Assembly (NCBI GenBank): GCA_964514965.1
Contig: CAZETV010000001.1
Coordinates: 693,063-725,062 of the forward strand
DNA: 32,000 nt
Direction: 5' to 3'
Source: Candidatus Hadarchaeota archaeon
Lineage (GTDB): Archaea > Hadarchaeota > Hadarchaeia > Hadarchaeales > Hadarchaeaceae
A model generated the notes under the pieces. That model was given only the letters and a program-made list of their open reading frames with translations. It was not told the origin of the DNA and did no database searches. Positions 144 to 15,976 of this stretch are shown here, one piece after another (position 1 is the first letter of the stretch; each line of letters begins with the position of its first letter). The translations under genes and the position numbers were made by a program.

Positions 144-1337
144 TTATTCCACCTCAACACCGTAAGCTCGAGCGATTTCGTAAAATGCATCGACGACTTT
201 CTGGAGCTGCTCCTTGGTCAACCCATAAGTGTTGAGCTTCATCATCTTGGTCATCCCCGCGTGAATACCCGCAATTTTCCTTTTCTTGAGTTCCTCATAC
301 AGGAAGAAACCTCTCCGCGGGTGTTTCTTCGCGACTTTGTGGAAGGACGGAGTTTCAAAGGCTACCAATGTATGTTGTCGTGGGCGCTCCCCAAGTTGGT
401 GGAAGTCTTTAATGCGTTCGAACTCCTTGACCAACCACCTAACCTTTTCCACCTCCTCATCCCAACGCTTGACCCGCTCGACCACATGTGGAAAACTCGC
501 CATCAACGTCGCGATGGGGGCACCAAAGACCGGCGGGCACCCAAAAAGGTAGACATCTTTCTTGGTGAAAGCACGACCACTCCATGGCCCCTTAATCGTC
601 GAAGTTCGGAATACCTTTCCCGAGAACTCATAGGTGGTGGCGAGCATTCCAATAGGACCACTCGATGACCACGACTTATGCCCACTACAAACCAAGAAAT
701 CAACCCCCAGTTTCTTCCCATCGACAGGCATCACGCCCGCAGTATAAGCAGCGTTGAGAATGTAGGGCACTCCGTATTCCTTCGCTATCTCCCCTACCCC
801 AGCGGCATCGACGAGGTTCCCGTAACGGTAGTCCACATGCGTGAGCAAAATTGCCGCTGGAAGCTCTCCTGTTTCCCGCTTGACCTCCTCAATCTTCGCC
901 GCGTAATCATCGATTTTTATTTTGAATTCGGGATATCCTCCGTGAGGCACTTCAACTATTTTGAGGCCGTTAACTTCAGCTGCGATATAGGTGGTGTAAT
1001 GCGCAAGCGAGTCAATCACAATTGTATCGCCTGGCTCCGCGATTGACTTGAAGATTGCCTGCTTTGCGCCCCGAGCTCCAGGCGTGAATTGGACTTCATC
1101 CATATTCAAGAACTTTGCAACATCACTTGCAAAATCTAAAATAGGCGGCGTTTTTACTAGGTCTATACGGCTCTCAAGACAGAGGTCGCAGGTGCTGTAT
1201 CCATCGCCGAAGGAAAGCAAAGCCTTTCTGGACTCGGGCGGCAACACACCACCGCGTTGGATGGGATGGACGTTAATCCAACTCTCGTCAACCACCCGGC
1301 GAAGGTTTTTGTATTTATCGACATTTATTTTAACCAT
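144..1337 (-). CDS. pscS: O-phosphoseryl-tRNA:Cys-tRNA synthase (SepCysS), PLP-dependent
   Basis: Fold-type I PLP enzyme with the lysine motif CSGHKS. It has the N-terminal INVHPIQRGG block, the CxxC pair (STCDLC) and a third Cys (LFGCPP) typical of SepCysS. I chose the ATG at 1337 (MVKINVDKY) because GGTGA lies 5-9 nt upstream; the track start at 1358 is less likely. Confidence 0.85.
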   Translation of the reverse strand: MVKINVDKYKNLRRVVDESWINVHPIQRGGVLPPESRKALLSFGDGYSTCDLCLESRIDLVKTPPILDFASDVAKFLNMDEVQFTPGARGAKQAIFKSIAEPGDTIVIDSLAHYTTYIAAEVNGLKIVEVPHGGYPEFKIKIDDYAAKIEEVKRETGELPAAILLTHVDYRYGNLVDAAGVGEIAKEYGVPYILNAAYTAGVMPVDGKKLGVDFLVCSGHKSWSSSGPIGMLATTYEFSGKVFRTSTIKGPWSGRAFTKKDVYLFGCPPVFGAPIATLMASFPHVVERVKRWDEEVEKVRWLVKEFERIKDFHQLGERPRQHTLVAFETPSFHKVAKKHPRRGFFLYEELKKRKIAGIHAGMTKMMKLNTYGLTKEQLQKVVDAFYEIARAYGVEVE

Positions 1338-1413
1338 TAACTCACCTTTGAAAAACATTCACAGGTTATAACCCTAAATAACCTTCTTTATAAATTGGGA
1401 GTAGTTGGTTAAT

Positions 1414-3186: not shown

Positions 3187-4452
3187 ATGGGCAACGTGAC
3201 CGGATTGAGGTGCCGAGAATGCGGCGAGGTTTATCTTAAAAAACTTGTCCACGCCTGCAGTCTGTGCTTCGGCCCACTCGACGTCACCTACGATTATGGG
3301 AAAATTGCCGAGGTAGTGTCGAAAGAATCAATCGCCTGTGGCCCCCCGACCCTTTGGCGCTACCGAGATCTCCTGCCCATCGAGCAATATGCCTCAATAG
3401 TCGACATAGGCGTAGGTTTCACCCCGTTACTGCGAGCCGATAACCTCGCTAGTGAGCTTGGTCTCAAAGAAGTTTACGTGAAGAACGACTCGGTCAATCC
3501 TACCTTCTCTTTCAAGGATCGACCATCAAGCATCGCGGTTTCTAAGGCGATCGAATTCGGCTCTCCCGCAGTGGGTGCTGCTTCGACGGGCAACCTCTCG
3601 GGAGCGATGGCTGCCCATGCTGCTAAAGCTCGCCTGCCATGTTTCATCTTTATCCCCGAGGGCCTAGAAATCTCAAAGGTCGCTCAAACGCTCTCATACG
3701 GCGCCCACATCATCGAAGTCAAGGGCACTTACGACCAAGCGAACCGGCTTGCCACAGAAATAGCCCTTACGAGCAACATCGCCTTCGCAAACATCAATGT
3801 TCGCCCTTACTATGTCGAGGGCTCGAAAACGCTGACGTTCGAAGTCTGTGAACAGTTAGGCTGGAAAGCGCCCGAACACATCATCATACCTGTTGCTTCG
3901 GGAGCTCTTCTTCACGCTGCTTGGCGAGGGCTCAAAGAGCTTGAGGAAGTCGGGCTCATCGATAATTGGAGTACCCGAATCTCCGCAGCACAAGCTGAGG
4001 GCTGTTCTCCAGTAGTTCAAGCTTTACTGAAAGGAGCTAGCGAGATAAAACCCGTCGAGAAGCCAGACACTACTTGCAAATCGCTTGCCATAGGCGACCC
4101 CGCCGATGGGTACTACGCCATCCAAGCCGTACGAGCCACCAAGGGCTCAGGCAGGAATCCTAACGACAAACAGATTCTCGAAGGCGTCAAACTCCTAGCC
4201 AAGACGGAAGGTGTATTCACCGAGCCCGCGGGTGGAACCGTCGTTGCTGCACTCAAACAACTTGTTGAGGACGGCGAGGTTGAGCGCGACGAACAAGTGG
4301 TACTCTACATCACTGGTAACGGGCTGAAGACGCAGGAAAGCATTGCCTCTGCGCTTCCCAAGACTCACCGAATTGAGCCAGCAATCGAAAGTTTTAGGGG
4401 GCTAGTCAACAAACTTCAAACTCCCGGAGTAAAATGGTTGGAGGGGATGTAA
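3187..4452 (+). CDS. thrC: threonine synthase family (ThrC-fold) PLP enzyme with N-terminal Zn-ribbon; context suggests a thiocarboxylate-dependent sulfhydrylase role
   Basis: N-terminal CRECG...CSLCFG ribbon as in archaeal ThrC. PLP-lysine motif NPTFSFKDRP (K110) and an ASTGN loop are present. It is first in a tightly coupled gene string; the next ATG comes 1 nt after its stop. Confidence 0.8.
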   Translation: MGNVTGLRCRECGEVYLKKLVHACSLCFGPLDVTYDYGKIAEVVSKESIACGPPTLWRYRDLLPIEQYASIVDIGVGFTPLLRADNLASELGLKEVYVKNDSVNPTFSFKDRPSSIAVSKAIEFGSPAVGAASTGNLSGAMAAHAAKARLPCFIFIPEGLEISKVAQTLSYGAHIIEVKGTYDQANRLATEIALTSNIAFANINVRPYYVEGSKTLTFEVCEQLGWKAPEHIIIPVASGALLHAAWRGLKELEEVGLIDNWSTRISAAQAEGCSPVVQALLKGASEIKPVEKPDTTCKSLAIGDPADGYYAIQAVRATKGSGRNPNDKQILEGVKLLAKTEGVFTEPAGGTVVAALKQLVEDGEVERDEQVVLYITGNGLKTQESIASALPKTHRIEPAIESFRGLVNKLQTPGVKWLEGM

Positions 4453-4453
4453 A

Positions 4454-5557
4454 ATGGTGAAAGTAAATGTGAAATTTTCGGTGATGTTCAAGGACGCGAC
4501 AGAGACCACTACGACCACTGTGGATATGGCGGGTGAGACGGTAAAGGATCTCATTGACACCCTGATCAAACAGTTTGGACCGCAATTTGGCGAGCGAATA
4601 CTAGATGCGAAGACGGGCGGAGTCTGGAGGTTCGTCAACATCTTCGTTAACGGCAAGGATATCCGGAACCTACAGGGGGTCGACACGAAGCTTGAAGAGG
4701 GGGCCGAGGTGAGATTGATCCCTGCGGTCGCGGGCGGTAGCGAGTTTCTCGGCTTCACTCAGGACCAAATCGTGCGCTACAGCCGACAGATAATTTTGAA
4801 GGAAGTCGGCGGCAAGGGGCAGCGAAAGCTCCTGAACTCGAAGGTATTGGTCGTGGGTGCTGGGGGCCTCGGCTCGCCCGCCTCCCTCTACCTCTCTGCG
4901 GCAGGCGTAGGAAAGATTGGAATCATCGACAGCGACAAAGTCGACCTGAGCAACCTCCAGCGGCAGCTCCTCCACACGAATGACGACATCGACCGACCGA
5001 AAATCGAGTCAGCCAAAGAGAAACTCTTAAAGATAAATCCTGAGATAGAAGTCATCACCTATAATGAGAAGCTTACCACTGATAACGCTTTAAACATCGT
5101 CGGGGAATGGGACTTCGTGCTCGACGGAAGCGACAACTTTCCCACAAAATTTCTCATAAACGACGCCTGTGTGCTTAAAGGTGTTCCACTTTCCCATGGT
5201 GGTGTCCTGCGCTTCACGGGGATGACGACAACTATCCTTCCCGGCAAGGGGGCCTGCTATCGCTGCCTGACGCCCGAAGCTCCCCCTCTTGGGATGATCC
5301 CGACCTGCCAGGAGGCCGGGGTGCTGGGAGCGGTACCAGGCGTGATTGGGACGATCCAAGCCACAGAGACTTTGAAATACCTGCTCGGCGCCGGTAATCT
5401 CCTAGTCGGACGCATCCTCTTCTTCGACGCGCTCGAGATGTGCTTCGAGGAGTTTGAGCTAAAGCGAGACCCCAAGTGCCAAGTCTGTGGAAACCAACCT
5501 ATTATCAAGGATCCATCCCAAGTGGACTACGGCCATGTCTGCGAGGTGCGATTCTGA
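4454..5557 (+). CDS. fusion protein: ThiS/MoaD-like beta-grasp sulfur-carrier domain (aa 1-95, ends AVAGG) plus ThiF/MoeB-type E1 adenylyltransferase
   Basis: The N-terminal 95 aa align with the standalone beta-grasp protein at 8400-8684 and end in GG (codons 4733-4738). The E1 core follows immediately: RYSRQIIL, VLVVGAGGLGSP, SNLQRQ, the active-site region PTCQEAGVLG, and Zn-site CxxC pairs CYRC and CQVC. There is no rhodanese domain. Confidence 0.85.
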   Translation: MVKVNVKFSVMFKDATETTTTTVDMAGETVKDLIDTLIKQFGPQFGERILDAKTGGVWRFVNIFVNGKDIRNLQGVDTKLEEGAEVRLIPAVAGGSEFLGFTQDQIVRYSRQIILKEVGGKGQRKLLNSKVLVVGAGGLGSPASLYLSAAGVGKIGIIDSDKVDLSNLQRQLLHTNDDIDRPKIESAKEKLLKINPEIEVITYNEKLTTDNALNIVGEWDFVLDGSDNFPTKFLINDACVLKGVPLSHGGVLRFTGMTTTILPGKGACYRCLTPEAPPLGMIPTCQEAGVLGAVPGVIGTIQATETLKYLLGAGNLLVGRILFFDALEMCFEEFELKRDPKCQVCGNQPIIKDPSQVDYGHVCEVRF

Positions 5558-5796
5558 TGGTTGAACACAAGGTCAACCAAAAAATCGACATTCGTGGTGA
5601 TGTCTGCCCCTACACCTTCGTCAAGTCCAAGCTCGCCCTTGAGGGTCTCAAGAGCGGTCAAGTATTGGAGGTAATCGTCGACCACACTCCCGCGACCGAG
5701 AATGTGCCACGTAGCATGGAGGCCGAGGGACACAATGTGCTCGAGGTCGCAAAGATAGGCGAGCACGAGTGGCGAATTGTTATCCAGAAGGCCTAG
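5557..5796 (+). CDS. tusA: TusA/SirA-family sulfurtransferase
   Basis: 79 aa with the motif IDIRGDVCPYTFVKSK (the conserved Cys-Pro of TusA). ATG 5557 shares its A with the E1 stop TGA 5555-5557. The track extension back to 5476 overlaps the E1 C-terminus in another frame and is not credible. Confidence 0.8.
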   Translation: MVEHKVNQKIDIRGDVCPYTFVKSKLALEGLKSGQVLEVIVDHTPATENVPRSMEAEGHNVLEVAKIGEHEWRIVIQKA

Positions 5797-6209
5797 TGGG
5801 TCTCGATTTCCAGCTCTTCAACTTTGCTTTTTTTCAAAATGTATGCTTTTCGTTCTAAAACCCGGTCCTTCACCACGCTCAAAATCAGCCACGCTACCTC
5901 CGGCCATAAATTCATTATCTCTGCATCACGCGCACTCACATAAGCATGAATGTTAGGGTGGGAGTGGTATATCCCAACAAGCTCGAACCCACTCCGCTCC
6001 GCGCGGTCGACCGCCTTAAACACGAATTCAGGATCTGCCTCGAACGCAACGGGGGATCCGAGCACGTTCTCTGCTTCGACGGCTTCCTCGACCTCAATTA
6101 CGTCCTCGCTGGACTTGCCGAAAATCAGACCACAGCACTCGTAGGGGAAATTCTTCAGCGTGTGGGCCTCGATCGCCTTTAGGTCCTTGGGTTTTAGCTT
6201 GAGCTTCAT
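5793..6209 (-). CDS. JAMM/MPN+ metallopeptidase (Mec+/QbsD/HcyD-like)
   Basis: Complete JAMM signature: an upstream Glu (PYECCGLIFG) and GIYHSHPNIHAYVSARD (HxHx7Sx2D). The ATG at 6209 (MKLKLK) follows a G-rich SD; the track TTG start at 6221 is an alternative. Its stop overlaps the tusA stop on the palindrome CTAG at 5793-5796. Confidence 0.85.
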   Translation of the reverse strand: MKLKLKPKDLKAIEAHTLKNFPYECCGLIFGKSSEDVIEVEEAVEAENVLGSPVAFEADPEFVFKAVDRAERSGFELVGIYHSHPNIHAYVSARDAEIMNLWPEVAWLILSVVKDRVLERKAYILKKSKVEELEIETH

Positions 6210-7028: not shown

Positions 7029-7048
7029 ATATGAATGTATATTCATAT
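7029..7048. promoter_or_regulatory. perfect 8-4-8 palindrome ATATGAAT-GTAT-ATTCATAT overlapping the acr3 TATA region; probable ArsR operator
   Basis: Read directly from the sequence. It lies 17 nt upstream of the preferred acr3 ATG (7065) and overlaps the TTTATAT TATA-like element at 7026-7032. An ArsR gene is co-transcribed downstream. Confidence 0.55.
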
Positions 7049-7064
7049 CTTAGCAGATGAAAAT

Positions 7065-8120
7065 ATGGTCGAAAGAAGATTGGGCGTATTCGAGAAATAC
7101 CTTACAGTCTGGGTCATCGCCTGTATAATCGCTGGTATAGTTCTAGGTAGGTTCCTTCCCACGTTAGCTCAAACTCTCAGCAATATTCAGTACGCCAACG
7201 TTTCAATCCCGATTGCGATTTGCCTTTTCTTCATGATTTATCCGATAATGATTCAAATCGACTTCAAAAAGGTAATCCAAGCTGGGAAAACCCCAAAACC
7301 CGTTGGGATAACACTGTTCGTGAACTGGCTAATCAAACCTTTCACCATGGCCTTCTTTGCTTGGCTCTTCATGTCAGTGATTTGGGCCCCGTTCATAACT
7401 CCTCAGATGGCCTCACAGTACGCGGCGGGAATGATACTTTTAGGTGTCGCCCCGTGTACAGCGATGGTGCTGGTCTGGAGCTATCTCTCTCGAGGTAACA
7501 TGGGGCATACGCTGGTGATGGTCGCCATAAACTCTCTGATTATGCTAGTACTCTATGCACCCCTCGGAGGATTTCTGCTTGGCGTTGCACAGATTCCGGT
7601 TCCGTGGATTACGATTGCGTTTTCCGTTGGAGTTTACGTAGGATTACCGCTGGTGGCGGGCTACTTCTCACGGAAGGAACTCCTGCGAAGGAAGGGGCGC
7701 GAGTGGTTCGACGGTTTTTCTTCCCGCCTCCACTACGTCTCAATCATCGCCTTACTCATCACACTCGTGGTGCTATTCAGTTTGCAAGGGGATGTAATCA
7801 TTCAACAACCACTGGTCATCGCAATGATCGCTCTGCCCCTGATGATCCAGACTTTCCTGATATTCTGGGTGAGCTATGGTATATCCAAAGTAGGGGGACT
7901 GACATACGAGGATGCTGCGCCTACATCGCAAATAGGCGCGAGCAACCATTTCGAAGTTGCGATTGCTGTGGCAACGGTGCTCTTTGGCCTCAACTCTGGA
8001 GCCGCGCTCGCGACTGTAGTGGGGGTTTTGATTGAAGTCCCCATCATGCTCACGCTAGTGAAAATATGCCTTCGAACCCAACATTGGTTCCCGAAAAATG
8101 GAGCGAGTAAAATTGACTGA
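7065..8120 (+). CDS. acr3: arsenite efflux permease, ACR3 family
   Basis: Polytopic membrane protein whose N-terminus FEKYLTVWV and motif [13 protein letters not shown] are characteristic of ACR3. I preferred ATG 7065 because the track start at 7035 falls inside the promoter palindrome. Confidence 0.85.
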
Positions 8121-8388
8121 TGGACAACTTCGATTACTCAAATGCGTGGCAGATGAAACGAGATTCCAGATTCTCCTAACATTGAAAAAGGGCGAGCGTT
8201 GCGTGTGCGAGATTATGGACGAACTCAACAAGGAGCAATCGTTAATATCACACCATCTGCAAGCCCTACGTAAGTGCGGACTAATCGATAGACGGCGCGA
8301 GGGAAAAAAGATAATGTACCGACTTTCGGACCCTTCGATTTTGAGATTCTTGGAAGATATCAAGGAACTATCCAAGAGACTCTACTGA
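8098..8388 (+). CDS. arsR: ArsR/SmtB family metalloregulator
   Basis: wHTH protein with the metal-site motif [11 protein letters not shown] (ELCVCDL-type) and [12 protein letters not shown]. It overlaps the acr3 end by 23 nt. Confidence 0.85.
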
Positions 8389-8399
8389 GCACTTCAGCA

Positions 8400-8684
8400 C
8401 TAGTCGCTTGCACCGGGCGGAAAAATCGCGACCTCGTCCTTATGCTTGAGCTTCGTGTGAATCCCGCGGATATGTTGAATCTTTCGGCCGTTAAGCAAGA
8501 TGTTGAAATTCTCCTGAAGCTCCCCCGTTGTCGGGTCAAGGAGCATTTCTACCACCCGAGGATGACGCCGGCTGAGCTTCATGAACAAGGCATCAACAGT
8601 CTCGTCCTCGCCAATCGAAACTTTTATCGTACTAGTGCCAGCCTTCTCGCGCAGTTCACCGTGCAACTTTACTACCACTTCCAT
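8400..8684 (-). CDS. standalone ThiS/MoaD-like beta-grasp protein lacking the C-terminal Gly-Gly (ends PPGASD)
   Basis: 94 aa, alignable end to end with aa 1-95 of the carrier-E1 fusion (NILLNGRKIQHIRGIHTKLKHKDEVAIFPPGASD versus NIFVNGKDIRNLQGVDTKLEEGAEVRLIPAVAGG). S-D occupies the G-G positions. Confidence 0.75.
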   Translation of the reverse strand: MEVVVKLHGELREKAGTSTIKVSIGEDETVDALFMKLSRRHPRVVEMLLDPTTGELQENFNILLNGRKIQHIRGIHTKLKHKDEVAIFPPGASD

Positions 8685-8855: not shown

Positions 8856-10037
8856 ATGAAAGCCGTGCTCGCTTACAGCGGAGGGCTGGATACTAGCATC
8901 GCGATTCGTTTACTCCAAGACAAGTACAAGGCCGATGTCATCACAGTTTCAGTTGATGTCGGACAGGATCCCAAGGAGCTAAAGGAAATAGCAGCAAAGG
9001 CGAAACAGCTAGGTGTTATTAAACACATTCACGTCGATGCGCGCAAAGAATTCGTCGAAGATTATATCTTCCGCAGCATCAAAGCGAACGGGCTCTACGA
9101 GGGGTATCCTCTCTCTACAGCTCTCGCCCGTTATCCAATCGCGAGCAAACTCGTTGAGGTCGCACGCAAAGAAAAGGCCGACGCCGTGGCACACGGTTGC
9201 ACAGGTAAGGGAAACGACCAGTTTCGCTTCGATACAACCATTGCAATCAAAGCCCCCGAACTCAAAATCATTGCGCCAATTCGAGAACTTAATCTCGATC
9301 GGAAGTGGGAACTCAAGTATGCGAAAAAACAGAACATCGCCCTCCCTAAAGTAGGTAAGTCCTATAGCATTGACGAAAATCTATTGGGACGATCCATTGA
9401 GGGAGGTGTGCTCGAAGACCCCTCACATGCTCCACCTGAAGAGATTTACGTGCGTACTCGCCCACCCGAAAAAGCTCCCCCCAAACCACGCATCATTGAA
9501 ATCGAGTTCAAGAAAGGTGTGCCGATTGCTATCGATAAAAAACGCATGGACGGTATCCAACTCATCACCAAACTAAACAAGATAGCTGGCGAGTACGGCG
9601 TCGGTAGAATCGAACTCATCGAAGATAGAATCCTCGGGCTGAAGGCGCGGGAGAACTATGAAGCACCGGCAGCTACTGTCCTGATACAAGCTCATCGAGC
9701 GCTTGAACAACTCGTGCTGACGAAACAGGAACTGGCATTTAAGCAAATAATCGACCAAACTTGGGCGGACTTGGCGTACAGTGGGCTATGGTTCGACTCT
9801 CTACGCGAGGACTTAGATGCTTTCATCGATAGCACGCAAAAGAGAGTTACTGGCAAGATAAAGGTTGAACTCAACCGCGGCAACTCGCGCGTGGTGGGCC
9901 GCAGCTCACCGTACTCCCTCTACAACAAGGGACTTGTTTCATTTGAGCGCTACGGCTTCGACCAGCGCGATGCTATCGGAGTTATAAAATTCCACGCACT
10001 TCAGAGCAAGATCCTACACAAGAAGAAGGGTGATTAG
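8856..10037 (+). CDS. argG: argininosuccinate synthase
   Basis: AYSGGLDTS ATP-PPase motif, the GCTGKGNDQxRF block, and typical length. GGTGAGG SD lies upstream. Confidence 0.95.
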   Translation: MKAVLAYSGGLDTSIAIRLLQDKYKADVITVSVDVGQDPKELKEIAAKAKQLGVIKHIHVDARKEFVEDYIFRSIKANGLYEGYPLSTALARYPIASKLVEVARKEKADAVAHGCTGKGNDQFRFDTTIAIKAPELKIIAPIRELNLDRKWELKYAKKQNIALPKVGKSYSIDENLLGRSIEGGVLEDPSHAPPEEIYVRTRPPEKAPPKPRIIEIEFKKGVPIAIDKKRMDGIQLITKLNKIAGEYGVGRIELIEDRILGLKARENYEAPAATVLIQAHRALEQLVLTKQELAFKQIIDQTWADLAYSGLWFDSLREDLDAFIDSTQKRVTGKIKVELNRGNSRVVGRSSPYSLYNKGLVSFERYGFDQRDAIGVIKFHALQSKILHKKKGD

Positions 10038-11516
10038 GTGCTTCGCCGGGGACGCTTTGAGCAAGAAATGGACCCTCTGGCTAGCGAGTATATCTCCTCG
10101 ATGGAAGCTGATGCTAGGATTTTCTACTCGGTCGTGCAAATCAACATGGCCCACACAATTATGCTCGCTGAGCGCAAGATTATCGACAGCGCAGACGCGG
10201 CTGCCATCCTCCAAGCGCTCTACAAGCTTCACGAGCAAGGCGTTAGTGGGTTGGACCTTCGCCCAGAGCTCGAGGACATTCATATGGCAGTTGAGGATTT
10301 TGTGACAAAAGCGACGAGCGAAGAAGTTGGAGGCAAGCTCAACACTGCGAAGAGCCGCAACGACCAAGTCGCCACGGCAATCCGTTTGACTCTGCGCAAG
10401 AACCTACTAGATGTTGAGGATAGTCTATTAGAACTAGTAAGTACCTTGGTCGCACTCGCCGAAAAAAATATCGATACGATAATGCCCGGCTACACTCACC
10501 TCCAAGTGGCTCAACCCACCACCTTCGCGCACCACCTCACCGCCTACTCTTTCGCCTTTCTACGTGATATCGATCGCATCGAACAGGCCTATGAGGTCAC
10601 GAACTCATGTCCAATGGGAGCCTGTGCGTTCGCGGGAACGAGCTTCCCCATCGATCGTTTGCGGGTGGCGCACATATTGGGTTTTAAGCGTACCGACGAG
10701 AACACCATGGATGCCGTCAGCTCACGCGATTTCGCCTTGCAGGTTATGAGCGCCCTAGCAATCGCAATGGTTAATCTCAGCAGGCTGGCCGAGGAGCTCG
10801 TGCTCTGGAGTTCGGAGGAATTCAACTTCATCGAATTGCCCGAGGAATTCGCGGCGACAAGCAGCGCCATGCCACAGAAGAAGAACCCAATCGTGGCCGA
10901 ACTTGCGCGCGCGAAGGCTGGGCGTGTCTTCGGGAACCTCTCAGGGGCCTTTGCGGTGATGAAGGCCATCCCCCAATCTTATAACCTCGACCTTCAGGAC
11001 TTAACGCCCTCACTGTGGAATTCCGTCGACGAGGTGAGGAATGGCGCGAAAGTGATGGCAAAACTAATCAGCGCAGCCGAGCCGAATCGAGAACTCATGC
11101 GCAGGCGGGCAGAAGGAGGATTCGCGACCGCGACCGAACTTGCCGATGCGCTTGTGTGGAAGGGGTTGGCCTTCAGGGACGCTCACACAATCGTTGGAAG
11201 ACTAATTGCCCGCGCAACCCAAGAGGGCCGGGCTTTAGGAGAGCTGAAAATAGAGGACCTACAAGCAGCATCGAAAGAAGTTTTCGACAAAGAGGTTCAA
11301 CTAACGCCCGAGGAGCTGAGAGAAGCTCTCGACCTCAACAAATGCATTGCTGCTCGGAAACTACCTGGTGGCCCCGCGCCAAAAGCTGTTAAAAATCAAC
11401 TCAAGTTAGTAAAGCGAGGAGCAAAACACCGCGCAAAGATTACGCGCACCCGAAGGCGAGCAATCACAAAAGCAGAAGTAAAGTTATTGAAGGAAGCCAA
11501 GAGGCGTTCGCGATGA
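10038..11516 (+). CDS. argH: argininosuccinate lyase with a basic C-terminal extension
   Basis: Fumarate-lyase signature SSAMPQKKNP and the TAKSRNDQV block. GTG start sits directly after the argG stop. The final ~33 aa are Lys/Arg-rich. Confidence 0.92.
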   Translation: MLRRGRFEQEMDPLASEYISSMEADARIFYSVVQINMAHTIMLAERKIIDSADAAAILQALYKLHEQGVSGLDLRPELEDIHMAVEDFVTKATSEEVGGKLNTAKSRNDQVATAIRLTLRKNLLDVEDSLLELVSTLVALAEKNIDTIMPGYTHLQVAQPTTFAHHLTAYSFAFLRDIDRIEQAYEVTNSCPMGACAFAGTSFPIDRLRVAHILGFKRTDENTMDAVSSRDFALQVMSALAIAMVNLSRLAEELVLWSSEEFNFIELPEEFAATSSAMPQKKNPIVAELARAKAGRVFGNLSGAFAVMKAIPQSYNLDLQDLTPSLWNSVDEVRNGAKVMAKLISAAEPNRELMRRRAEGGFATATELADALVWKGLAFRDAHTIVGRLIARATQEGRALGELKIEDLQAASKEVFDKEVQLTPEELREALDLNKCIAARKLPGGPAPKAVKNQLKLVKRGAKHRAKITRTRRRAITKAEVKLLKEAKRRSR

Positions 11517-12541
11517 AAATCACGGCTGCGGTAGTTGGAGCATCAGGTTACACGGGAGTAGAACTCTTCAGGCTGCTCGCCGGCCACCCCGAGGTAAGTC
11601 TCATTGGAGCCTACGACATCCAAAACGTCGGGAAACTCGTGGGTGATATCCATCCAAATCTTCGTGGAATAGTTAATCTAAAAATAACTGAACCCGACTA
11701 CATGAAAATCGGAAAGCAGGCCGACGTCGTCTTCGTGGCTACTCCGCACCGTGTCGCGATGAACTTTGTGCCAGAGTTGCTCAAGGGGAAAGCAAAGATA
11801 ATTGACCTTAGCGCGGACTACCGACTCGATGACGTTAAAGTGTATGAGCGATACTACACCAAGCACAAGAGTCCAATGGTCAAAGGAGTTTATGGGATAC
11901 CTGAACTTCACCGCGCAAAAATCAAGCGTGCACGCCTCGTCGCAAATCCGGGATGCTATCCGACAGCTGCAATTCTGAGCTTGGCACCGCTAGTCAAACA
12001 ACACCTGATTGACCTCGACCACATCGTAATCGACGCTAAGACTGGAACCTCCGGTGCGGGGGCTACACCCAGTGAGGTGACTCATCATCCATTAGTATGT
12101 TCAAACATTCGAGCTTACGCCGCGACCACCCACCGCCACGCCCCTGAAATCGACCAAGAGTTGAGCAAGCTGGCTGGAGAAAAGGTCAAAGCCCACTTCA
12201 CACCTCATCTTATCCCAATCGTACGAGGAATCCTCTCGACAGCACATGTCTTCCTGAAAAAGTCGACTGTTAAAAAATCGTTACTTGGCCTCTACCAAAA
12301 GTTCTACGCCAGCGAGCCCTTCGTGCGGATACTTGAGGAACTACCGCAGGTGAACTTCGTGGCTGGATCAAACTACTGCAACATTGGATTCGAACTCGAC
12401 GCGACGAGCAATCGACTCGTCGTGGTTTCGACTATCGATAATCTCGTCAAGGGCGCCTCGGGACAGGCTATTCAAAACATGAATCTGATGTTCGGATTTG
12501 ATGAAACAAAGGGATTAGAGGCCCCAGCGTTACGGCCATGA
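11513..12541 (+). CDS. argC: N-acetyl-gamma-glutamyl-phosphate reductase
   Basis: N-terminal GASGYTG NAD(P)-binding motif and the active-site ANPGCYPTA. ATGA overlap with argH. Confidence 0.9.
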   Translation: MKITAAVVGASGYTGVELFRLLAGHPEVSLIGAYDIQNVGKLVGDIHPNLRGIVNLKITEPDYMKIGKQADVVFVATPHRVAMNFVPELLKGKAKIIDLSADYRLDDVKVYERYYTKHKSPMVKGVYGIPELHRAKIKRARLVANPGCYPTAAILSLAPLVKQHLIDLDHIVIDAKTGTSGAGATPSEVTHHPLVCSNIRAYAATTHRHAPEIDQELSKLAGEKVKAHFTPHLIPIVRGILSTAHVFLKKSTVKKSLLGLYQKFYASEPFVRILEELPQVNFVAGSNYCNIGFELDATSNRLVVVSTIDNLVKGASGQAIQNMNLMFGFDETKGLEAPALRP

Positions 12542-12618
12542 CAGCTTTATGGTCGAAACTAGTAAACCCTGCGCGAAAAGATTAAAGTTGTCCTCGTACC
12601 TCTTTTATTGGTGTTCGC

Positions 12619-13851
12619 ATGATCACTGTGCTTGAGGGCGGTGTAACAACGGTTCCTGGATTCCTAGCGGCTGGCGTGCGAGCTGGGATCAAACGCCGCG
12701 GACTTGACATGATGTTACTCGCGAGTGAAGATGGACCGATTACATCCGCGGGGATCTTCACCACAAATTTAGTGAAGGGCGCCCCGGTGCTCGTTACAAT
12801 GAAACACATAAAAAACGGAACGCTCGGAGCGATAGTCGTGAATTCGGGAAGCGCGAACGCGTACACTGGTAAGCGGGGGTTGCGGGACGCGCTTCGGATG
12901 ACTCGCCTCGCGGCGCACCTGCTGAAACTCCGCACAAATGATGTTGCCGTTGCATCGACTGGCATAATAGGATTACACTTGCCCATGCGGAAAATAGAGA
13001 CTGGAATCCGTGCGGCCGTCGAAGAACTATCGAATTCGCGAGAGGCAAGCCTGAGCGCAGCTAAGGCAATCATGACCACTGACACCACACCCAAGGAAAT
13101 TGCCATCCGGGTCGACCTCGAGGATGGAACACCTGTAACTATCGCGGGTATGACAAAAGGTGCCGGTATGATTCGCCCAAATCTACGAACCGCAACAATG
13201 CTCGCATTTATCGTCACAGATGCCGTGGTGAGCTCTGCAGCACTCAAGGCAGCACTTCAAAACTCGACCGATCAGAGTTTCAATATGATTAATATCGACA
13301 ACGAAACAAGCACCAGTGATATGGTGCTCGCGCTCGCGAACGGGCGCGCAAAAAATCGTCCAATCACTCTAAAGCGCCAAGATAAACAGTTTCAGGCAGG
13401 GCTCGATTATGTACTTACTGAACTTGCGTGGATGATCGCCAAAGACGGGGAGGGCGCATCGCATTTAATCGAGGTCCAAATTAAAAACGCCCGCAACCGA
13501 GAGGACGCACGCCGCGCCGCCCTTGCGATTACGGGGTCGAATTTAATCAAAGCTGCTATCTTCGGACGCGATCCCAACTACGGTCGTATAATCGCTGCCC
13601 TTGGTTATTCGGGAGCGTCGTTTGACCCTTCAAAACTGAGTTTAGAGCTAGTCAGCGATCGAGGCCGCGTTAACTTAGTCGTGCACGGAAAACCTAAAGC
13701 AAAGCGAGCGTTCAAGCGGGCGCGTGACATCATGCGCAGCAAAGAAATCGAAATCCACGCTGATCTCGCCGCCGGAAAAGCCTGTGCTACCGCCTGGGGG
13801 TGCGACCTAACTTATGACTATGTACGCATCAACTCGAAATACACGACCTAG
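12619..13851 (+). CDS. argJ: bifunctional ornithine acetyltransferase / N-acetylglutamate synthase
   Basis: ArgJ family with the autoprocessing site context RTATMLAFIVTDA and the KGAGMIRPN block. Confidence 0.92.
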   Translation: MITVLEGGVTTVPGFLAAGVRAGIKRRGLDMMLLASEDGPITSAGIFTTNLVKGAPVLVTMKHIKNGTLGAIVVNSGSANAYTGKRGLRDALRMTRLAAHLLKLRTNDVAVASTGIIGLHLPMRKIETGIRAAVEELSNSREASLSAAKAIMTTDTTPKEIAIRVDLEDGTPVTIAGMTKGAGMIRPNLRTATMLAFIVTDAVVSSAALKAALQNSTDQSFNMINIDNETSTSDMVLALANGRAKNRPITLKRQDKQFQAGLDYVLTELAWMIAKDGEGASHLIEVQIKNARNREDARRAALAITGSNLIKAAIFGRDPNYGRIIAALGYSGASFDPSKLSLELVSDRGRVNLVVHGKPKAKRAFKRARDIMRSKEIEIHADLAAGKACATAWGCDLTYDYVRINSKYTT

Positions 13852-13897
13852 TTTGGATTATCTTTAAGAACATGTAATTTAATGAAATCAATTTAGG

Positions 13898-14788
13898 ATG
13901 AAAATGCAAGACCGCGCCACAATATTGCTCGAGGCCCTGCCTTACATCCAGCAATTCCACGGCAAGACGATAGTTATCAAGCTCGGCGGAAGCGTGATGG
14001 GAAAAGAAAAACTGCTCGATGCCATGCTCCGCGACATCGTGCTCCTAAGCTACGTTGGCATGAAGATCGTGATCGTACACGGCGGCGGACCTGAGGTAAG
14101 TGAGGAGATGCGCAAACTGGGGAAGAAGCCGAAGTTCGTCGAAGGGCTCCGCGTGACTGATGAGAAAACGATGGAGATTCTGCATGAGCAGCTCGCGGGA
14201 AAAATCAATAAGGAAATCGTGCTGGGGATAAACAAACATGGAGGGCGTGCGGTGGGTATCTCGGGTATGGACGGGAATTTCATTCGTGCTCACAAACTCC
14301 TCTACAAGACCACGACGAGCAAAGGGCGAGAGGTCGAAGTAGATCTTGGGTTGGTTGGTGAAGTCGAGCAGATAAATCCAACCGTCATAAACTATCTCGT
14401 GGGCACAGGATACATTCCGGTGATAGCTCCGATAGGCATAGACGCAGAAGGGCGCAGTCTGAACATCAATGCCGACGTCGTGGCTGCCGAACTCGCAGAC
14501 GCTATGCATGCAAAAAAGCTCATTCTGCTCACTGACGTTATAGGCGTAATGCGCGACCCGAAGGATGAAAAAACACTCATCTCACAGCTAACTGCTGAGG
14601 AAACACAGAAGCTCATCCAAGAAGGAATCATAAAGAAGGGTATGATCCCAAAGATTGAGGCCTGTCTGCGGGCCGTGCAGGGGAGCGTGGAGCGCTCTCA
14701 CATTATCTGCGGCACCGCGCCTCACGTGCTTTTGCTTGAAATTTTGACCGAAAGCGGTATAGGCACAATGATTGAACGAGGCAAGTAA
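13898..14788 (+). CDS. argB: acetylglutamate kinase
   Basis: Amino-acid kinase fold: VIKLGGS, VIVHGGGP, and the NINAD block. Confidence 0.92.
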   Translation: MKMQDRATILLEALPYIQQFHGKTIVIKLGGSVMGKEKLLDAMLRDIVLLSYVGMKIVIVHGGGPEVSEEMRKLGKKPKFVEGLRVTDEKTMEILHEQLAGKINKEIVLGINKHGGRAVGISGMDGNFIRAHKLLYKTTTSKGREVEVDLGLVGEVEQINPTVINYLVGTGYIPVIAPIGIDAEGRSLNINADVVAAELADAMHAKKLILLTDVIGVMRDPKDEKTLISQLTAEETQKLIQEGIIKKGMIPKIEACLRAVQGSVERSHIICGTAPHVLLLEILTESGIGTMIERGK

Positions 14789-15976
14789 ATGCAGCGCATC
14801 AAAGAACTCGATGAGCGCTACATTGCAAGTACCTACAGACGCCAACCTTTAGCAATTGTAAAGGGCCGTGGGATGTTCGTCGAGGACATTCAGGGAAAAC
14901 GTTACTTAGATTTCGTGGGGGGGATAGCGGTCTGCTCTTTAGGATACTGCCATCCAGCCCTAGTCAAAGCAATCTCCACTCAAGCAAAGAAGTTAATGCA
15001 CACATCAAATCTTTATTATATCCAACAACAAGCAGAGCTAGCAGCATTGCTCGCACGTGTCGTCCCAAAGGGTATCAACAAGTTTTTCTTTTGCAACTCT
15101 GGCACAGAAGCTATCGAGGGTGCATTCAAGCTCGCGATCAAACACACCAAACGTCAGCGTATTATCACTATGCAGGGCTCCTTTCACGGCAGGACGGCAG
15201 CTAGCGTTGGCGCTACATGGAAATCCAGTTACCGTGAGCCATTTGAGGCCCTCATCCCCAAAATCTTCGATTTCGTGCCTTTCAACGACCTGGCTGCTGT
15301 AGAGCGAGCGATGGGCGAGCAAACGGCTGCTGTAATCGTAGAGGCAATTCAGGGCGAGGGCGGCGTAAACTTGCCATCCAACGATTACCTGCCAGGACTA
15401 CGAAAACTATGCGATGAGCATGGAGTACTCTTAATCTGCGACGAGGTTCAAACTGGAATGGGGCGCACGGGTAAATGGTTCGCGTGCGAGCACTGGAGTG
15501 TGGAACCTGATGAACTCACAATGGCGAAGGCGCTTGGCGGCGGTTTTCCAATCGGGTGCCTCAGCGCTAGAGCTGAAGTGATGGAGTCTTTTTCGCCAGG
15601 TGACCATGCTTCAACTTTTGGCGGGAATCCCTTGGCATGTGCGGCTGCAAAAAGCGTGATAAAAACTATGATGAAGTTAAAGCTCCCCCAACGAGCCACG
15701 AAAATTGGTGAGTACTTCAAAAAGCGCCTGAATGAACTCGCAGACAAACACGAGTGCGTGCAAGAGGTGCGAGGGCTCGGGCTAATGCTTGCGATGGAAC
15801 TCTCCACCAAACAAATTGCCGACACTACACTAGTCAAAGCTAGAGAACGAGGTTTCCTGATAAACTGCACCGCCGATAAAGTTTTGAGGTTCGTCCCGCC
15901 ATTGATAGTTGAGCGAGAACATGTCGATCGCTTGATAGAGGCTTTGGATTCAATATTTGTCGAGGTTGAGAAGTGA
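14789..15976 (+). CDS. argD: acetylornithine aminotransferase (class III PLP aminotransferase)
   Basis: Blocks SGTEAIEGAFK, CDEVQTGMGRTG and TMAKALGGGFP (PLP Lys). It starts at the base after the argB stop. Confidence 0.9.
   Translation: MQRIKELDERYIASTYRRQPLAIVKGRGMFVEDIQGKRYLDFVGGIAVCSLGYCHPALVKAISTQAKKLMHTSNLYYIQQQAELAALLARVVPKGINKFFFCNSGTEAIEGAFKLAIKHTKRQRIITMQGSFHGRTAASVGATWKSSYREPFEALIPKIFDFVPFNDLAAVERAMGEQTAAVIVEAIQGEGGVNLPSNDYLPGLRKLCDEHGVLLICDEVQTGMGRTGKWFACEHWSVEPDELTMAKALGGGFPIGCLSARAEVMESFSPGDHASTFGGNPLACAAAKSVIKTMMKLKLPQRATKIGEYFKKRLNELADKHECVQEVRGLGLMLAMELSTKQIADTTLVKARERGFLINCTADKVLRFVPPLIVEREHVDRLIEALDSIFVEVEK

What the first reader, a model, noticed from the sequence alone, without database searches (positions are those of the whole stretch)
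4454..4760. Sulfur-carrier/Ubl domain translated as an N-terminal fusion to its own E1, with an internal Gly-Gly
The first 95 residues form a ThiS/MoaD-type beta-grasp domain ending ...EVRLIPAVAGG (GG codons 4733-4738). Only about 10 residues later (SEFLGFTQDQIV) the E1 core RYSRQIIL begins. A carrier can only be adenylated or thiocarboxylated on a free C-terminal glycine carboxylate. The fusion therefore implies obligatory endoproteolytic release, formally like processing of ubiquitin precursors by deubiquitinases, and the adjacent JAMM peptidase is the obvious candidate. A fusion would also enforce 1:1 stoichiometry of carrier and activator.
Basis: partly seen in the sequence, partly recalled or inferred. 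Interest (0 to 1): 0.7.

Follow-up and report, generated by a model that had tools for sequence, protein, structure and literature searches.

The report
Sulfur-carrier protein fused to its activating enzyme
An archaeal gene really does encode a small sulfur-carrier protein joined head-to-tail to the enzyme that activates it, so the carrier almost certainly has to be cut free by a protease encoded nearby. This design was catalogued and predicted years ago and has been proven for sister fusions, so it is a good example of a known kind rather than a new one.

Summary
ORF 4454-5557 (+) is one uninterrupted 367-aa protein: a ThiS/MoaD beta-grasp domain ending in Gly94-Gly95, then a complete MoeB/ThiF-type E1. 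It is not an assembly error. In one search, 62 independent homologues from Hadarchaeota, Omnitrophota, Chloroflexota and Elusimicrobiota show the same fusion, and all keep the internal GG.

The gene sits in a tightly coupled operon: ThrC-like PLP enzyme, then Ubl-E1, then TusA, with a convergent JAMM gene carrying an intact catalytic motif. Free relatives of this carrier lie next to ThrC-like genes (65 of 89 copies). Many carry 1-8 extra residues after GG, or other fused domains (NIL, CMD, rhodanese-E1). In Geoglobus the same genes are unfused, with 1-2 nt between the carrier's stop and the E1 start.

Best reading: a MetM/MetO-type, thiocarboxylate-dependent homocysteine pathway whose carrier is made as a proprotein and released at GG by the JAMM. 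This is inferred, not shown.

The idea is not new. Iyer et al. 2006 listed Ubl-E1 fusions and proposed JAB cleavage of fused ThiS/MoaD. Cleavage at GG has been demonstrated for MoaD-MoaE fusions. No cleavage of a natural Ubl-E1 fusion was found in the literature. Interest is moderate to low.

The parts
3187..4452 (+). ThrC-like PLP enzyme (421 aa) with an N-terminal Cys4 zinc ribbon. It is the proposed MetM-type homocysteine synthase that consumes the carrier thiocarboxylate.
   Evidence: Pfam PALP E 6.7e-70. NCBIfam PRK08197 'threonine synthase' scores 310 bits against a cut-off of 303. The closest solved structures are threonine synthases. Its stop TAA lies 1 nt before the ATG of the fusion. 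A ThrC-like gene lies within 3 kb of 65/89 copies of this Ubl family.
4454..5557 (+). Single ORF (367 aa) encoding the Ubl-E1 proprotein.
   Evidence: AF2 model: mean pLDDT 88, pTM 0.82.
4454..4738 (+). ThiS/MoaD-type beta-grasp carrier domain (aa 1-95), ending in AVAGG.
   Evidence: Pfam ThiS E 7.8e-12. NCBIfam moaD_arch scores 54.4 bits against a cut-off of 49.5. pLDDT is 84-94 over aa 1-90.
4733..4738 (+). Gly94-Gly95 codons. This is the predicted cleavage, adenylation and thiocarboxylation site.
   Evidence: Invariant in 62/62 fused homologues and in alignment A1.
4739..4774 (+). Junction SEFLGFTQDQIV. It is a short variable linker followed by the native N-terminal segment of the E1.
   Evidence: pLDDT is 55-60 over aa 91-120. 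The distance from GG to RYSRQ is 7-16 aa across homologues, and the first residue after GG is not conserved.
4775..5554 (+). MoeB/ThiF-type E1 adenylyltransferase core. It has RYSRQ, GAGGLG, two zinc CxxC pairs and the PTCQEAG cysteine. There is no rhodanese domain.
   Evidence: Pfam ThiF E 4.1e-83. Motif coordinates. These residues are invariant in A1. Foldseek to MoeB 1jw9_B gives target-normalised TM 0.90.
5557..5796 (+). TusA-family sulfur-relay protein (79 aa, CPY motif). Its ATG shares the A of the E1 stop codon.
   Evidence: Pfam TusA E 1.4e-22. The overlap TGATG is shown. TusA follows the E1 in L001, L003, L005-L010 and L012.
5793..6209 (-). JAMM/MPN+ metalloprotease (138 aa from the first ATG), convergent with the operon. 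It is the candidate maturase that cuts after Gly95 and a possible carrier-product hydrolase.
   Evidence: Pfam Prok-JAB E 5.4e-18. E28 and HSHPNIHAYVSARD at aa 86-99. PfJAMM1 5lda E 3.8e-17. The arrangement E1, then TusA, then a convergent JAB gene is conserved in L005, L007, L008 and L009.
144..1358 (-). SepCysS (Sep-tRNA:Cys-tRNA synthase). It is a conserved neighbour of the E1 module in Hadarchaeota and is listed as context only.
   Evidence: NCBIfam PRK09331 scores 572 bits. A SepCysS gene is next to the E1 in L001, L002, L005, L007 and L008.

Best explanation
The gene encodes a proprotein in a protein-thiocarboxylate sulfur-assimilation operon of a Hadarchaeota archaeon. The proposed steps are below, each marked as shown or inferred.

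1. ThrC-like, Ubl-E1 and TusA are translated from overlapping or abutting genes. The coupling is shown in the sequence.
2. A JAMM metalloprotease, most likely the convergent neighbour at 5793-6209, cuts after Gly95. This releases a 95-aa carrier with a free GG carboxylate and a 272-aa E1 with an essentially native N-terminus. Inferred.
3. The E1 adenylates Gly95. Inferred from intact catalytic residues.
4. Sulfur arrives through TusA, because the E1 has no rhodanese domain, and gives the carrier thiocarboxylate. Inferred.
5. The ThrC-like PLP enzyme uses the thiocarboxylate and O-phosphohomoserine to make homocysteine, as in the Streptomyces MetM/MetO/MoeZ/Mec route. Inferred from gene context.
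6. The JAMM may also hydrolyse a carrier-homocysteine adduct. This is by analogy with Mec+ and HcyD, which I cite from my own knowledge.

The fusion is an evolutionarily easy variant of two translationally coupled genes, and it has been gained or lost many times.
For: Fusion and domains.

Breadth and GG invariance: 62/62 fused homologues in at least four phyla keep GG.

Internal control: the solo SAMP1-like paralogue of the same archaea has lost GG in most of its 108 homologues. Conservation of the internal GG therefore reflects use.

Same-slot relatives: in Geoglobus L010 and L012 the order is ThrC-like, then Ubl ending GG-stop, then 2 or 1 nt, then the E1 ATG, then TusA.

C-terminal processing is a family trait:
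- Of 89 Ubl copies in GTDB representative genomes and earlier loci, 41 end exactly at GG, 32 have 1-8 extra residues, 9 are fused to E1 and 7 are fused to other domains (NIL x5, CMD, rhodanese-E1).
- A rough motif count on 149 library representatives gives 78 exact GG, 48 extended and 11 fused.

JAMM:
- It is competent, and its closest solved relative is PfJAMM1.
- A JAMM gene lies within 10 kb of 19/44 carriers that need trimming against 7/41 that end at GG (Fisher p 0.0105).

Precedents for cleavage:
- MoaX is cut between Gly82 and Ser83 and needs the cut for activity.
- DR0402, HvJAMM1 and PfJAMM1 cut linear MoaD/SAMP fusions.
- QbsD and CxnF are proposed to trim residues after GG.
- Mec is listed as needed for MetO maturation.

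Homocysteine assignment:
- A ThrC-like gene lies within 3 kb of 65/89 Ubl copies.
- The MetM/MetO pathway is described.
- Hadarchaeal loci that lack both the ThrC-like gene and the fused Ubl carry HcyBio/NIL-ferredoxin or MetY/MetX genes nearby instead.

Other support:
- The junction has low predicted order, pLDDT 55-60, between two confident domains.
- Fused and unfused E1s interleave on an E1 tree, with about 14 state changes.
Against: - There is no direct evidence of cleavage.
- Fused loci L001, L003, L006 and L039 show no JAMM gene within the 6-10 kb I could see.
- The JAMM association is not corrected for phylogeny. Nitrospira and Leptospirillum operons keep a JAMM whether or not the carrier is extended.
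- The module of E1, TusA and a convergent JAB gene survives in Hadarchaeal loci that have lost both the Ubl and the ThrC-like gene. E1 and JAMM must therefore have at least one other substrate.
- The ThrC-like protein also passes NCBI's threonine-synthase model, and I could not compare it with an authentic MetM sequence.
- There is no rhodanese domain, unlike MoeZ.
Confidence: 0.7

Rival explanations
1. The fused beta-grasp domain is never cleaved. It works non-covalently, for example as a docking, chaperoning or auto-inhibitory module, and the E1 activates some other free carrier encoded elsewhere.
For: [quoted passage not shown]
- L058 and L063 carry both a free Ubl and a Ubl-E1 gene.
- Hadarchaeal E1s that have lost the Ubl still keep TusA and the JAMM, so the E1 serves other carriers, such as the L007 ThiS ending GG-IREC.
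Against: - GG is invariant in 62/62 fusions, while the unused GG of the solo paralogue decays in the same lineage.
- The only other ThiS-fold gene in the window ends ...PPGASD and cannot be adenylated.
- The fused domain sits exactly where free carriers sit in unfused operons.
- The ThrC-like partner would have no carrier nearby.
Confidence: 0.17
2. The carrier is released, but not by the neighbouring JAMM. Another protease cuts after GG, or the protein cleaves itself, and the JAMM only hydrolyses carrier-amino-acid adducts or conjugates in the manner of Mec+ or a desampylase.
For: - Several fused loci lack a nearby JAMM.
- A JAMM is present in loci where the carrier ends exactly at GG, such as Nitrospira L069-L071.
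- The MoaX protease was reported as 'as yet unidentified'.
Against: - The residue after GG is not conserved, so there is no Ser/Thr/Cys nucleophile for autoproteolysis.
- JAMMs of this clade cut linear Ubl fusions whatever follows the Gly.
- JAMM genes are enriched near fused carriers: 8/12 against 7/41 for exact-GG carriers, p 0.002.
Confidence: 0.1
3. The fusion is an assembly or sequencing artefact: a lost stop codon or an indel between two adjacent genes.
For: In unfused relatives the two genes are only 1-2 nt apart, so a single indel would join them.
Against: The same in-frame fusion occurs in 62 clusters from independent assemblies at 47-100% identity, with a lineage-specific conserved linker. 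One apparent split case, P0043, turned out to be a mis-called start on an in-frame fusion.
Confidence: 0.01

Closest known systems
MetM/MetO/MoeZ/Mec thiocarboxylate-dependent homocysteine pathway of Streptomyces (Hasebe et al. 2024, known here only through GapMind 2026 and PMC12172450)
   Same: A ThrC-like PLP enzyme is encoded next to a ThiS/MoaD-type carrier. The carrier needs C-terminal maturation by a JAMM (Mec) and is activated by a MoeB-type E1.
   Different: - Here the carrier is covalently fused to the E1 rather than being free with a short tail.
- The E1 lacks the rhodanese domain of MoeZ, and a TusA gene follows instead.
- The host is archaeal.
- Orthology of the ThrC-like protein to MetM could not be tested directly.
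Cleaved MoaD-MoaE fusions: M. tuberculosis MoaX, and D. radiodurans DR2607 cut by the JAMM DR0402. HvJAMM1 and PfJAMM1 also act on linear SAMP fusions.
   Same: The carrier domain is N-terminal and GG sits at the junction (MoaX is cut at GG|S, and the window reads GG|S). Cleavage is required to expose the Gly carboxylate. A small JAMM of the same clade does the cutting.
   Different: The fusion partner there is the downstream sulfur acceptor enzyme MoaE, not the upstream activating E1. The pathway is molybdopterin synthesis, not amino-acid synthesis.
Ubl-E1 fusions catalogued by comparative genomics (Iyer, Burroughs & Aravind 2006; Makarova & Koonin 2010)
   Same: A Ubl domain lies at the N-terminus of a ThiF/MoeB Rossmann domain. 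[quoted passage not shown]
   Different: The listed cases are thiamine operons with a second solo ThiS, a Campylobacter Ubl 'distinct from ThiS', and Thaumarchaeal Ubl-E1-TBP. None is the ThrC-linked carrier family, and none has been tested experimentally.
Sulfur carriers with short tails trimmed by JAMMs: QbsE/QbsD, CxnE/CxnF (both proposed) and HcyS/HcyD
   Same: GG is followed by extra residues that must be removed before adenylation, and a JAMM is encoded in the cluster.
   Different: The tail there is 1-10 residues, not a 272-aa enzyme. HcyS/HcyD is cited from my own knowledge (Krishnamoorthy & Begley 2011) and was not read here.

Membership tests
ThiS/MoaD sulfur-carrier (beta-grasp Ubl) | Sequence match to the ThiS/MoaD profile | tested here: met
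   Pfam PF02597 E 7.8e-12 (46 bits against a cut-off of 22.5). NCBIfam moaD_arch scores 54.4 against 49.5.
ThiS/MoaD sulfur-carrier (beta-grasp Ubl) | Beta-grasp fold | tested here: met
   In the AF2 model, aa 1-90 have pLDDT 84-94 with a strand-helix-strand pattern. The domain was not searched on its own against structures.
ThiS/MoaD sulfur-carrier (beta-grasp Ubl) | Gly-Gly at the end of the domain | tested here: met
   G94-G95 are invariant in 62/62 fused homologues.
ThiS/MoaD sulfur-carrier (beta-grasp Ubl) | Free C-terminal Gly carboxylate in the gene product | tested here: not met
   GG is internal, followed by 272 residues with no stop. The feature can be met only after proteolysis, which cannot be tested here.
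MoeB/ThiF-type E1 | ThiF Rossmann domain with the nucleotide loop, Arg finger, catalytic Asp and two zinc CxxC pairs | tested here: met
   Pfam ThiF E 4.1e-83. R108, R111, G135-G140, D159, D161, K183, D227, C268, C271, C342 and C345 are invariant.
MoeB/ThiF-type E1 | Structural similarity to MoeB/ThiF | tested here: met
   Foldseek to 1jw9_B: E 3.8e-28, target TM 0.90, 41% identity.
MoeZ-type E1 (E1 plus rhodanese) | C-terminal rhodanese domain | tested here: not met
   Only ThiS and ThiF domains are found in the window protein. Some homologues do carry one (P0092, P0113, P0118, L037).
JAMM/MPN+ metalloprotease (neighbour at 5793-6209) | E...H-S/T-H-x7-S-x2-D metal-binding motif | tested here: met
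   E28 and HSHPNIHAYVSARD at aa 86-99. Prok-JAB E 5.4e-18.
JAMM/MPN+ metalloprotease (neighbour at 5793-6209) | Cleaves after the Ubl C-terminal Gly in linear fusions | not testable with these tools
   Support is by homology only, to PfJAMM1 (E 3.8e-17), for which this activity is reported.
MetM/MetO homocysteine pathway | ThrC-like PLP enzyme encoded next to the carrier | tested here: met
   In the window the genes are 1 nt apart. A ThrC-like gene lies within 3 kb of 65/89 family members.
MetM/MetO homocysteine pathway | Orthology of the ThrC-like protein to characterised MetM, and use of O-phosphohomoserine plus thiocarboxylate | not tested
The protein also passes the threonine-synthase model PRK08197.
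Thiamine-type ThiS-ThiF fusion (Iyer 2006, Table 1 row 1) | Thiamine operon context (ThiG, ThiC, ThiE and others) with a second solo ThiS that is functional | tested here: not met
   No thiamine genes were found among the ORFs I annotated around the fusion. The neighbours are ThrC-like, TusA, JAMM and SepCysS. The only solo ThiS lacks GG.

The most novel reading that the evidence does not exclude
The fusion may be more than a convenient gene merger. It could be a zymogen-like control point. In the uncleaved proprotein the Ubl is tethered about 3 residues from the E1's N-terminal Arg-finger helix, where it could occupy or block the adenylation site. JAMM cleavage would then switch on carrier and E1 together and gate sulfur flow into homocysteine. 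The same JAMM, E1 and TusA module would serve a second carrier for SepCysS-linked sulfur delivery, which would explain why the module survives when the Ubl and ThrC-like gene are lost.
Probability: 0.12. Interest if true: 0.65.

Novelty: new member of a known kind. Interest (0 to 1): 0.35.

Why it matters
If cleavage is confirmed, this would be the first demonstrated case I know of in which a sulfur carrier is released from its own activating E1. It would extend the JAMM maturase logic, a prokaryotic parallel to the processing of ubiquitin precursors, from MoaD-MoaE to the E1 step.

It would also place the recently described MetM/MetO homocysteine route in uncultured archaea (Hadarchaeota) and several candidate bacterial phyla. 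That helps metabolic reconstruction, because the ThrC-like gene is routinely annotated as threonine synthase and the fusion as MoeB.

It does not change the concepts of the field, because both the architecture and the proposed mechanism were published in 2006-2018.

Tried and rejected
- **Assembly artefact:** rejected on conservation.
- **Self-cleavage through a nucleophile after GG:** rejected, because that position is variable.
- **The solo ThiS at 8400-8684 as the real E1 substrate:** rejected. It ends ...PPGASD with no visible frameshift, and most of its family lacks GG.
- **Thiamine-type ThiS-ThiF fusion:** rejected on gene context.
- **'Split' Hadarchaeal E1s as evidence for a two-gene ancestral state:**
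  - P0043 is a mis-called start on an in-frame fusion.
  - The true split loci L005, L007 and L008 have lost the Ubl and the ThrC-like gene altogether.
  - Split E1 proteins P0030 and P0036 (the E1 of L008) keep a vestigial ...LAGG N-terminal stub.
- **Reading Hasebe et al. 2024 for the MetM sequence:** the paper is not held.
- **Literature search for an experimentally studied natural ThiS/MoaD-E1 fusion:** nothing found.
- **Representative-library search with the Ubl domain**: it confirmed that free carriers dominate. It cannot give a clean fused fraction, because fused proteins cluster with E1s.
- **AF2 and Foldseek**: they confirm both folds and a low-confidence junction. Coordinates are not returned, so I could not measure whether the tethered GG can reach an active site.
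- **The JAMM proximity statistic**: suggestive only. It is not corrected for phylogeny, and contig ends truncate many loci.
Full report
**1. The observation.** ORF 4454-5557 (+) is a continuous 367-codon frame.
- Pfam places a ThiS domain at aa 15-95 (E 7.8e-12) and a ThiF domain at aa 109-344 (E 4.1e-83).
- NCBIfam places archaeal MoaD/SAMP1 models over aa 4-95 and MoeB/UbaA models over aa 102-366.
- The beta-grasp domain ends AVAGG at aa 91-95, with the GG codons at nt 4733-4738. RYSRQ begins at aa 108.
- The E1 has the nucleotide loop GAGGLG, the Arg-finger helix, two zinc CxxC pairs and the PTCQEAG cysteine. All are invariant among homologues.
- Its predicted fold superposes on E. coli MoeB with target-normalised TM 0.90.

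**2. The fusion is not an artefact.**
- A search of 5.8 billion proteins returned an exact match on a 1.03-Mb contig.
- Among the best 120 hits, 62 are fused proteins of 356-482 aa at 47-100% identity. They are labelled Hadarchaeota, Omnitrophota, Chloroflexota and Elusimicrobiota and come from independent NCBI, JGI, ENA and Logan assemblies.
- Every one keeps GG at the junction, in the pattern P-x-x-[AS]-G-G. G94 and G95 are invariant in a 50-sequence alignment.
- The distance from GG to RYSRQ is 7-16 residues. Free-standing E1s start about 9 residues before RYSRQ, and E. coli MoeB/ThiF residues 5-7 align to query residues 103-105. The true linker is therefore only about 2-3 residues.
- Cutting at GG would regenerate both native proteins.

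**3. The neighbourhood.**
- The upstream gene (3187-4452) is a ThrC-like PLP enzyme with an N-terminal zinc ribbon. Its stop lies 1 nt before the fusion's ATG.
- The downstream gene is TusA (5557-5796). Its ATG shares a base with the E1 stop codon.
- A 138-aa JAMM (5793-6209) converges on TusA from the minus strand. It has the full motif (E28, HSHPNIHAYVSARD), and its closest solved relative is PfJAMM1 (E 3.8e-17).
- SepCysS lies upstream. The annotated ORFs in the rest of the window are mainly an arginine-biosynthesis operon.

**4. Related loci.**
- In Hadarchaeota the order SepCysS ... ThrC-like, Ubl-E1, TusA recurs, with a convergent JAB gene after TusA (L001 and L009). L001 itself shows no JAB in the region read.
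- In Omnitrophota the fusion sits with a CysK-like PLP gene, a ThrC-like gene, a NIL-domain gene, Thi4, sulfite reductase, PAPS reductase, ATP sulfurylase and a JAB-LMWPc protein.
- In a Chloroflexi MAG it sits with TusA and DsrE/DsrH genes.
- This matches operon type 4e of Iyer et al. 2006: ThiS/MoaD, JAB, E1, SirA and sulfate-assimilation genes.

**5. The split state.**
- In two Archaeoglobi-type MAGs (L010 and L012) the gene order is the same: ThrC-like, Ubl, E1, TusA.
- There the Ubl ends GG-stop and the E1 ATG follows after 2 or 1 nt, in another frame.
- The fusion is therefore one small indel away from a translationally coupled gene pair.
- On a neighbour-joining tree of the E1 domain, fused and unfused forms interleave. 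Parsimony gives about 14 state changes among 118 sequences. This is a rough figure, because some 'split' calls are start-codon errors.
- One such error is MSBL1 P0043, which is an in-frame fusion with a TTG start.

**6. C-terminal processing is a trait of this carrier family.**
- A pattern scan of GTDB representative genomes with the Ubl alignment gave 80 loci. Together with the earlier loci they hold 89 Ubl copies.
- Their C-terminal states are as follows:
  - 41 end exactly at GG.
  - 32 carry 1-8 extra residues, such as A, SR, RSRA, TLCRT and LGSRSRQA.
  - 9 are fused to an E1.
  - 7 are fused through GG to other domains, confirmed by Pfam: NIL (5), a CMD/AhpD-like domain (1) and rhodanese-E1 (1).
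- Among 149 representatives from the 1.84-billion-protein library, a rough motif count gives 78 exact GG, 48 with extensions of 1-40 residues and 11 fused.
- What follows GG is variable, but GG is constant. That is the pattern expected if a protease recognises the Ubl and cuts after GG.

**7. An internal control.**
- The window has a second, solo ThiS/SAMP1-like gene (8400-8684, minus strand). It ends ...AIFPPGASD, with no sign of a frameshift.
- Its 108 homologues, mostly Hadarchaeota at 59-100% identity, keep the beta-grasp body. Only about a quarter keep PPV[AG]GG; the rest have degenerate tails.
- In these same genomes, then, a diglycine that is not used decays.
- The invariance of the internal GG in the fusion therefore argues that it is used, which requires a free carboxylate and hence cleavage.
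- The control also removes the only other candidate carrier in the window.

**8. Is the JAMM the maturase?**

Evidence for:
- The motif is intact.
- It is homologous to PfJAMM1. PfJAMM1 and HvJAMM1 cut linear SAMP fusions whatever follows the Gly.
- DR0402 cuts the natural MoaD-MoaE fusion and generates a C-terminal Gly.
- MoaX must be cut between Gly82 and Ser83 to work.
- QbsD and CxnF are proposed to trim residues after GG.
- Mec is listed as required for MetO maturation.
- In the GTDB sample, a JAMM gene lies within 10 kb of 19/44 carriers that need trimming against 7/41 that end at GG (Fisher p 0.0105). For fused carriers alone the figure is 8/12 (p 0.002).
- A split Hadarchaeal locus (L007) that keeps E1, TusA and the convergent JAB gene has a free ThiS ending GG-IREC, which also needs trimming.

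Evidence against, or limits:
- The test is not phylogenetically corrected.
- Nitrospira-type operons keep a JAMM regardless of extension.
- Four fused loci show no JAMM in the DNA available.
- The JAMM persists where the Ubl has been lost.

I conclude that the JAMM is the best candidate for cutting the fusion, and that it probably has further roles such as adduct hydrolysis or acting on other carriers.

**9. What the pathway makes.**
- A ThrC-like gene lies within 3 kb of 65/89 copies of this Ubl family. Most of the remaining copies sit next to another PLP-dependent (PALP-family) gene, probably CysK/CysM-like.
- A ThrC-like enzyme paired with a ThiS-type carrier is the signature of the MetM/MetO route from O-phosphohomoserine to homocysteine. 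That route was described in Streptomyces in 2024 and is now in GapMind. GapMind notes that MetM is routinely mis-annotated as threonine synthase.
- The NIL domain occurs here both as a separate gene after the Ubl and as a Ubl fusion partner. Outside this system it is known from methionine-related proteins, which I state from my own knowledge.
- Hadarchaeal loci that have lost both the ThrC-like gene and the Ubl carry the HcyBio/NIL-ferredoxin genes or MetY/MetX/MetW nearby.
- I could not compare the protein with an authentic MetM sequence, and it also passes a threonine-synthase model. The homocysteine assignment is therefore an inference from context.

**10. Structure.**
- AF2 with the 50-sequence alignment gives mean pLDDT 88 and pTM 0.82.
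- The Ubl (aa 1-90) and the E1 (aa 121-360) are confident. The junction at aa 91-120 scores 55-60 and falls below 50 at aa 111-113.
- This is compatible with an exposed, cleavable junction but does not prove it.
- No solved chain covers both domains.

**11. Comparison with what is known.**
- Iyer, Burroughs and Aravind (2006) list Ubl domains fused to the N-terminus of ThiF and ThiS-ThiF fusions.
- Makarova and Koonin (2010) list a Ubl-E1-TBP architecture in Thaumarchaeota.
The mechanism has been demonstrated for MoaD-MoaE fusions.
- I found no experimental work on cleavage of a natural Ubl-E1 fusion, and none placing such a fusion in a MetM-type operon.

**12. Verdict.**
- It is a new member of a known kind.
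- The most useful practical output is better annotation: a MetM/MetO-like pathway in Hadarchaeota and several bacterial phyla, and a clean experimental system for JAMM-dependent carrier maturation.

Noticed in passing
window 8400-8684 (-): A solo SAMP1/MoaD-like gene ends ...AIFPPGASD with no diglycine and no visible frameshift. Across its 108 homologues (mostly Hadarchaeota, 59-100% identical) only about a quarter keep PPV[AG]GG; the rest have degenerate Ser- or acid-rich tails. This is a conserved beta-grasp paralogue that cannot be adenylated. Its GG-independent role is unknown.
   Followed up: partly
L033, L054, L062, L067, L075 (Ubl-NIL); L011 (Ubl-CMD); L046 (Ubl-rhodanese-E1); L037, P0092, P0113, P0118 (Ubl-E1-rhodanese): The same carrier family is fused through its GG to several other domains. 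Pfam confirms NIL, a carboxymuconolactone-decarboxylase/AhpD-like domain, and rhodanese placed before or after the E1. NIL also occurs as a separate gene right after the Ubl or the Ubl-E1 (L004 7110-7361; L027).
   Followed up: partly
L005 6001-6876, L007 6001-6840, L008 5547-6428: In these Hadarchaeal loci the ThrC-like gene and the Ubl are absent, but E1, TusA and the convergent JAB gene remain next to SepCysS. Some of these E1s (P0030, P0036) keep an N-terminal stub ending ...LAGG, apparently a relic of the lost Ubl. The loci have HcyBio/NIL-ferredoxin/ApbE-like genes or MetY/MetX/MetW genes close by instead.
   Followed up: partly
L007 3499-3792: A free ThiS (97 aa) between the HcyBio cluster and SepCysS ends ...FPPVSGG-IREC. 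It is a carrier with a 4-residue tail in a locus that keeps E1, TusA and JAB. This hints that the module also serves sulfur delivery linked to SepCysS or HcyBio.
   Followed up: no
L006 5728-6831 (MSBL1 archaeon SCGC-AAA259O05, LHXV01000003.1): The deposited protein P0043 (276 aa, 'adenylyltransferase') starts at an internal GTG inside ...PAVAGG. The in-frame upstream 285 nt encode the full Ubl from a TTG start, so the gene is a mis-annotated fusion.
   Followed up: yes
P0267 (representative library hit): A 1907-aa protein has 11 separate stretches matching the 95-aa Ubl query. It looks like a giant poly-Ubl protein. Origin and context are unknown.
   Followed up: no
window 5528-5542 (aa 359-363 of the fusion): The C-terminal tail of the E1 has an invariant Tyr359 and Cys363 (consensus IDYxxFCG) across 50 fused homologues, beyond the second zinc CxxC. 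It could be a persulfide-accepting cysteine that stands in for a rhodanese domain. This was not examined.
   Followed up: no
window 8856-16908 (+): A contiguous arginine-biosynthesis operon. Pfam confirms ArgJ, an amino-acid kinase, a class-III aminotransferase and an ornithine carbamoyltransferase. I assigned argG, argH and argC at its start by eye from the translations and did not search them.
   Followed up: partly
window 7035-8388 (+): From the translations, this looks like an ACR3-like membrane transporter followed by an overlapping small ArsR-type HTH regulator, lying between the GTPase gene and the solo ThiS. I read these by eye and did not search them.
   Followed up: no
L058 9225-9437 and 9532 onward; L063 10001 and 17284: Two Dehalococcoidia genomes carry both a free Ubl with a short tail (GG-GWA, GG-SQAARTG) and a Ubl-E1 fusion in the same locus. 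In L058 the two genes are about 95 nt apart; in L063 they are about 7 kb apart. That is two GG-bearing carriers per system.
   Followed up: no
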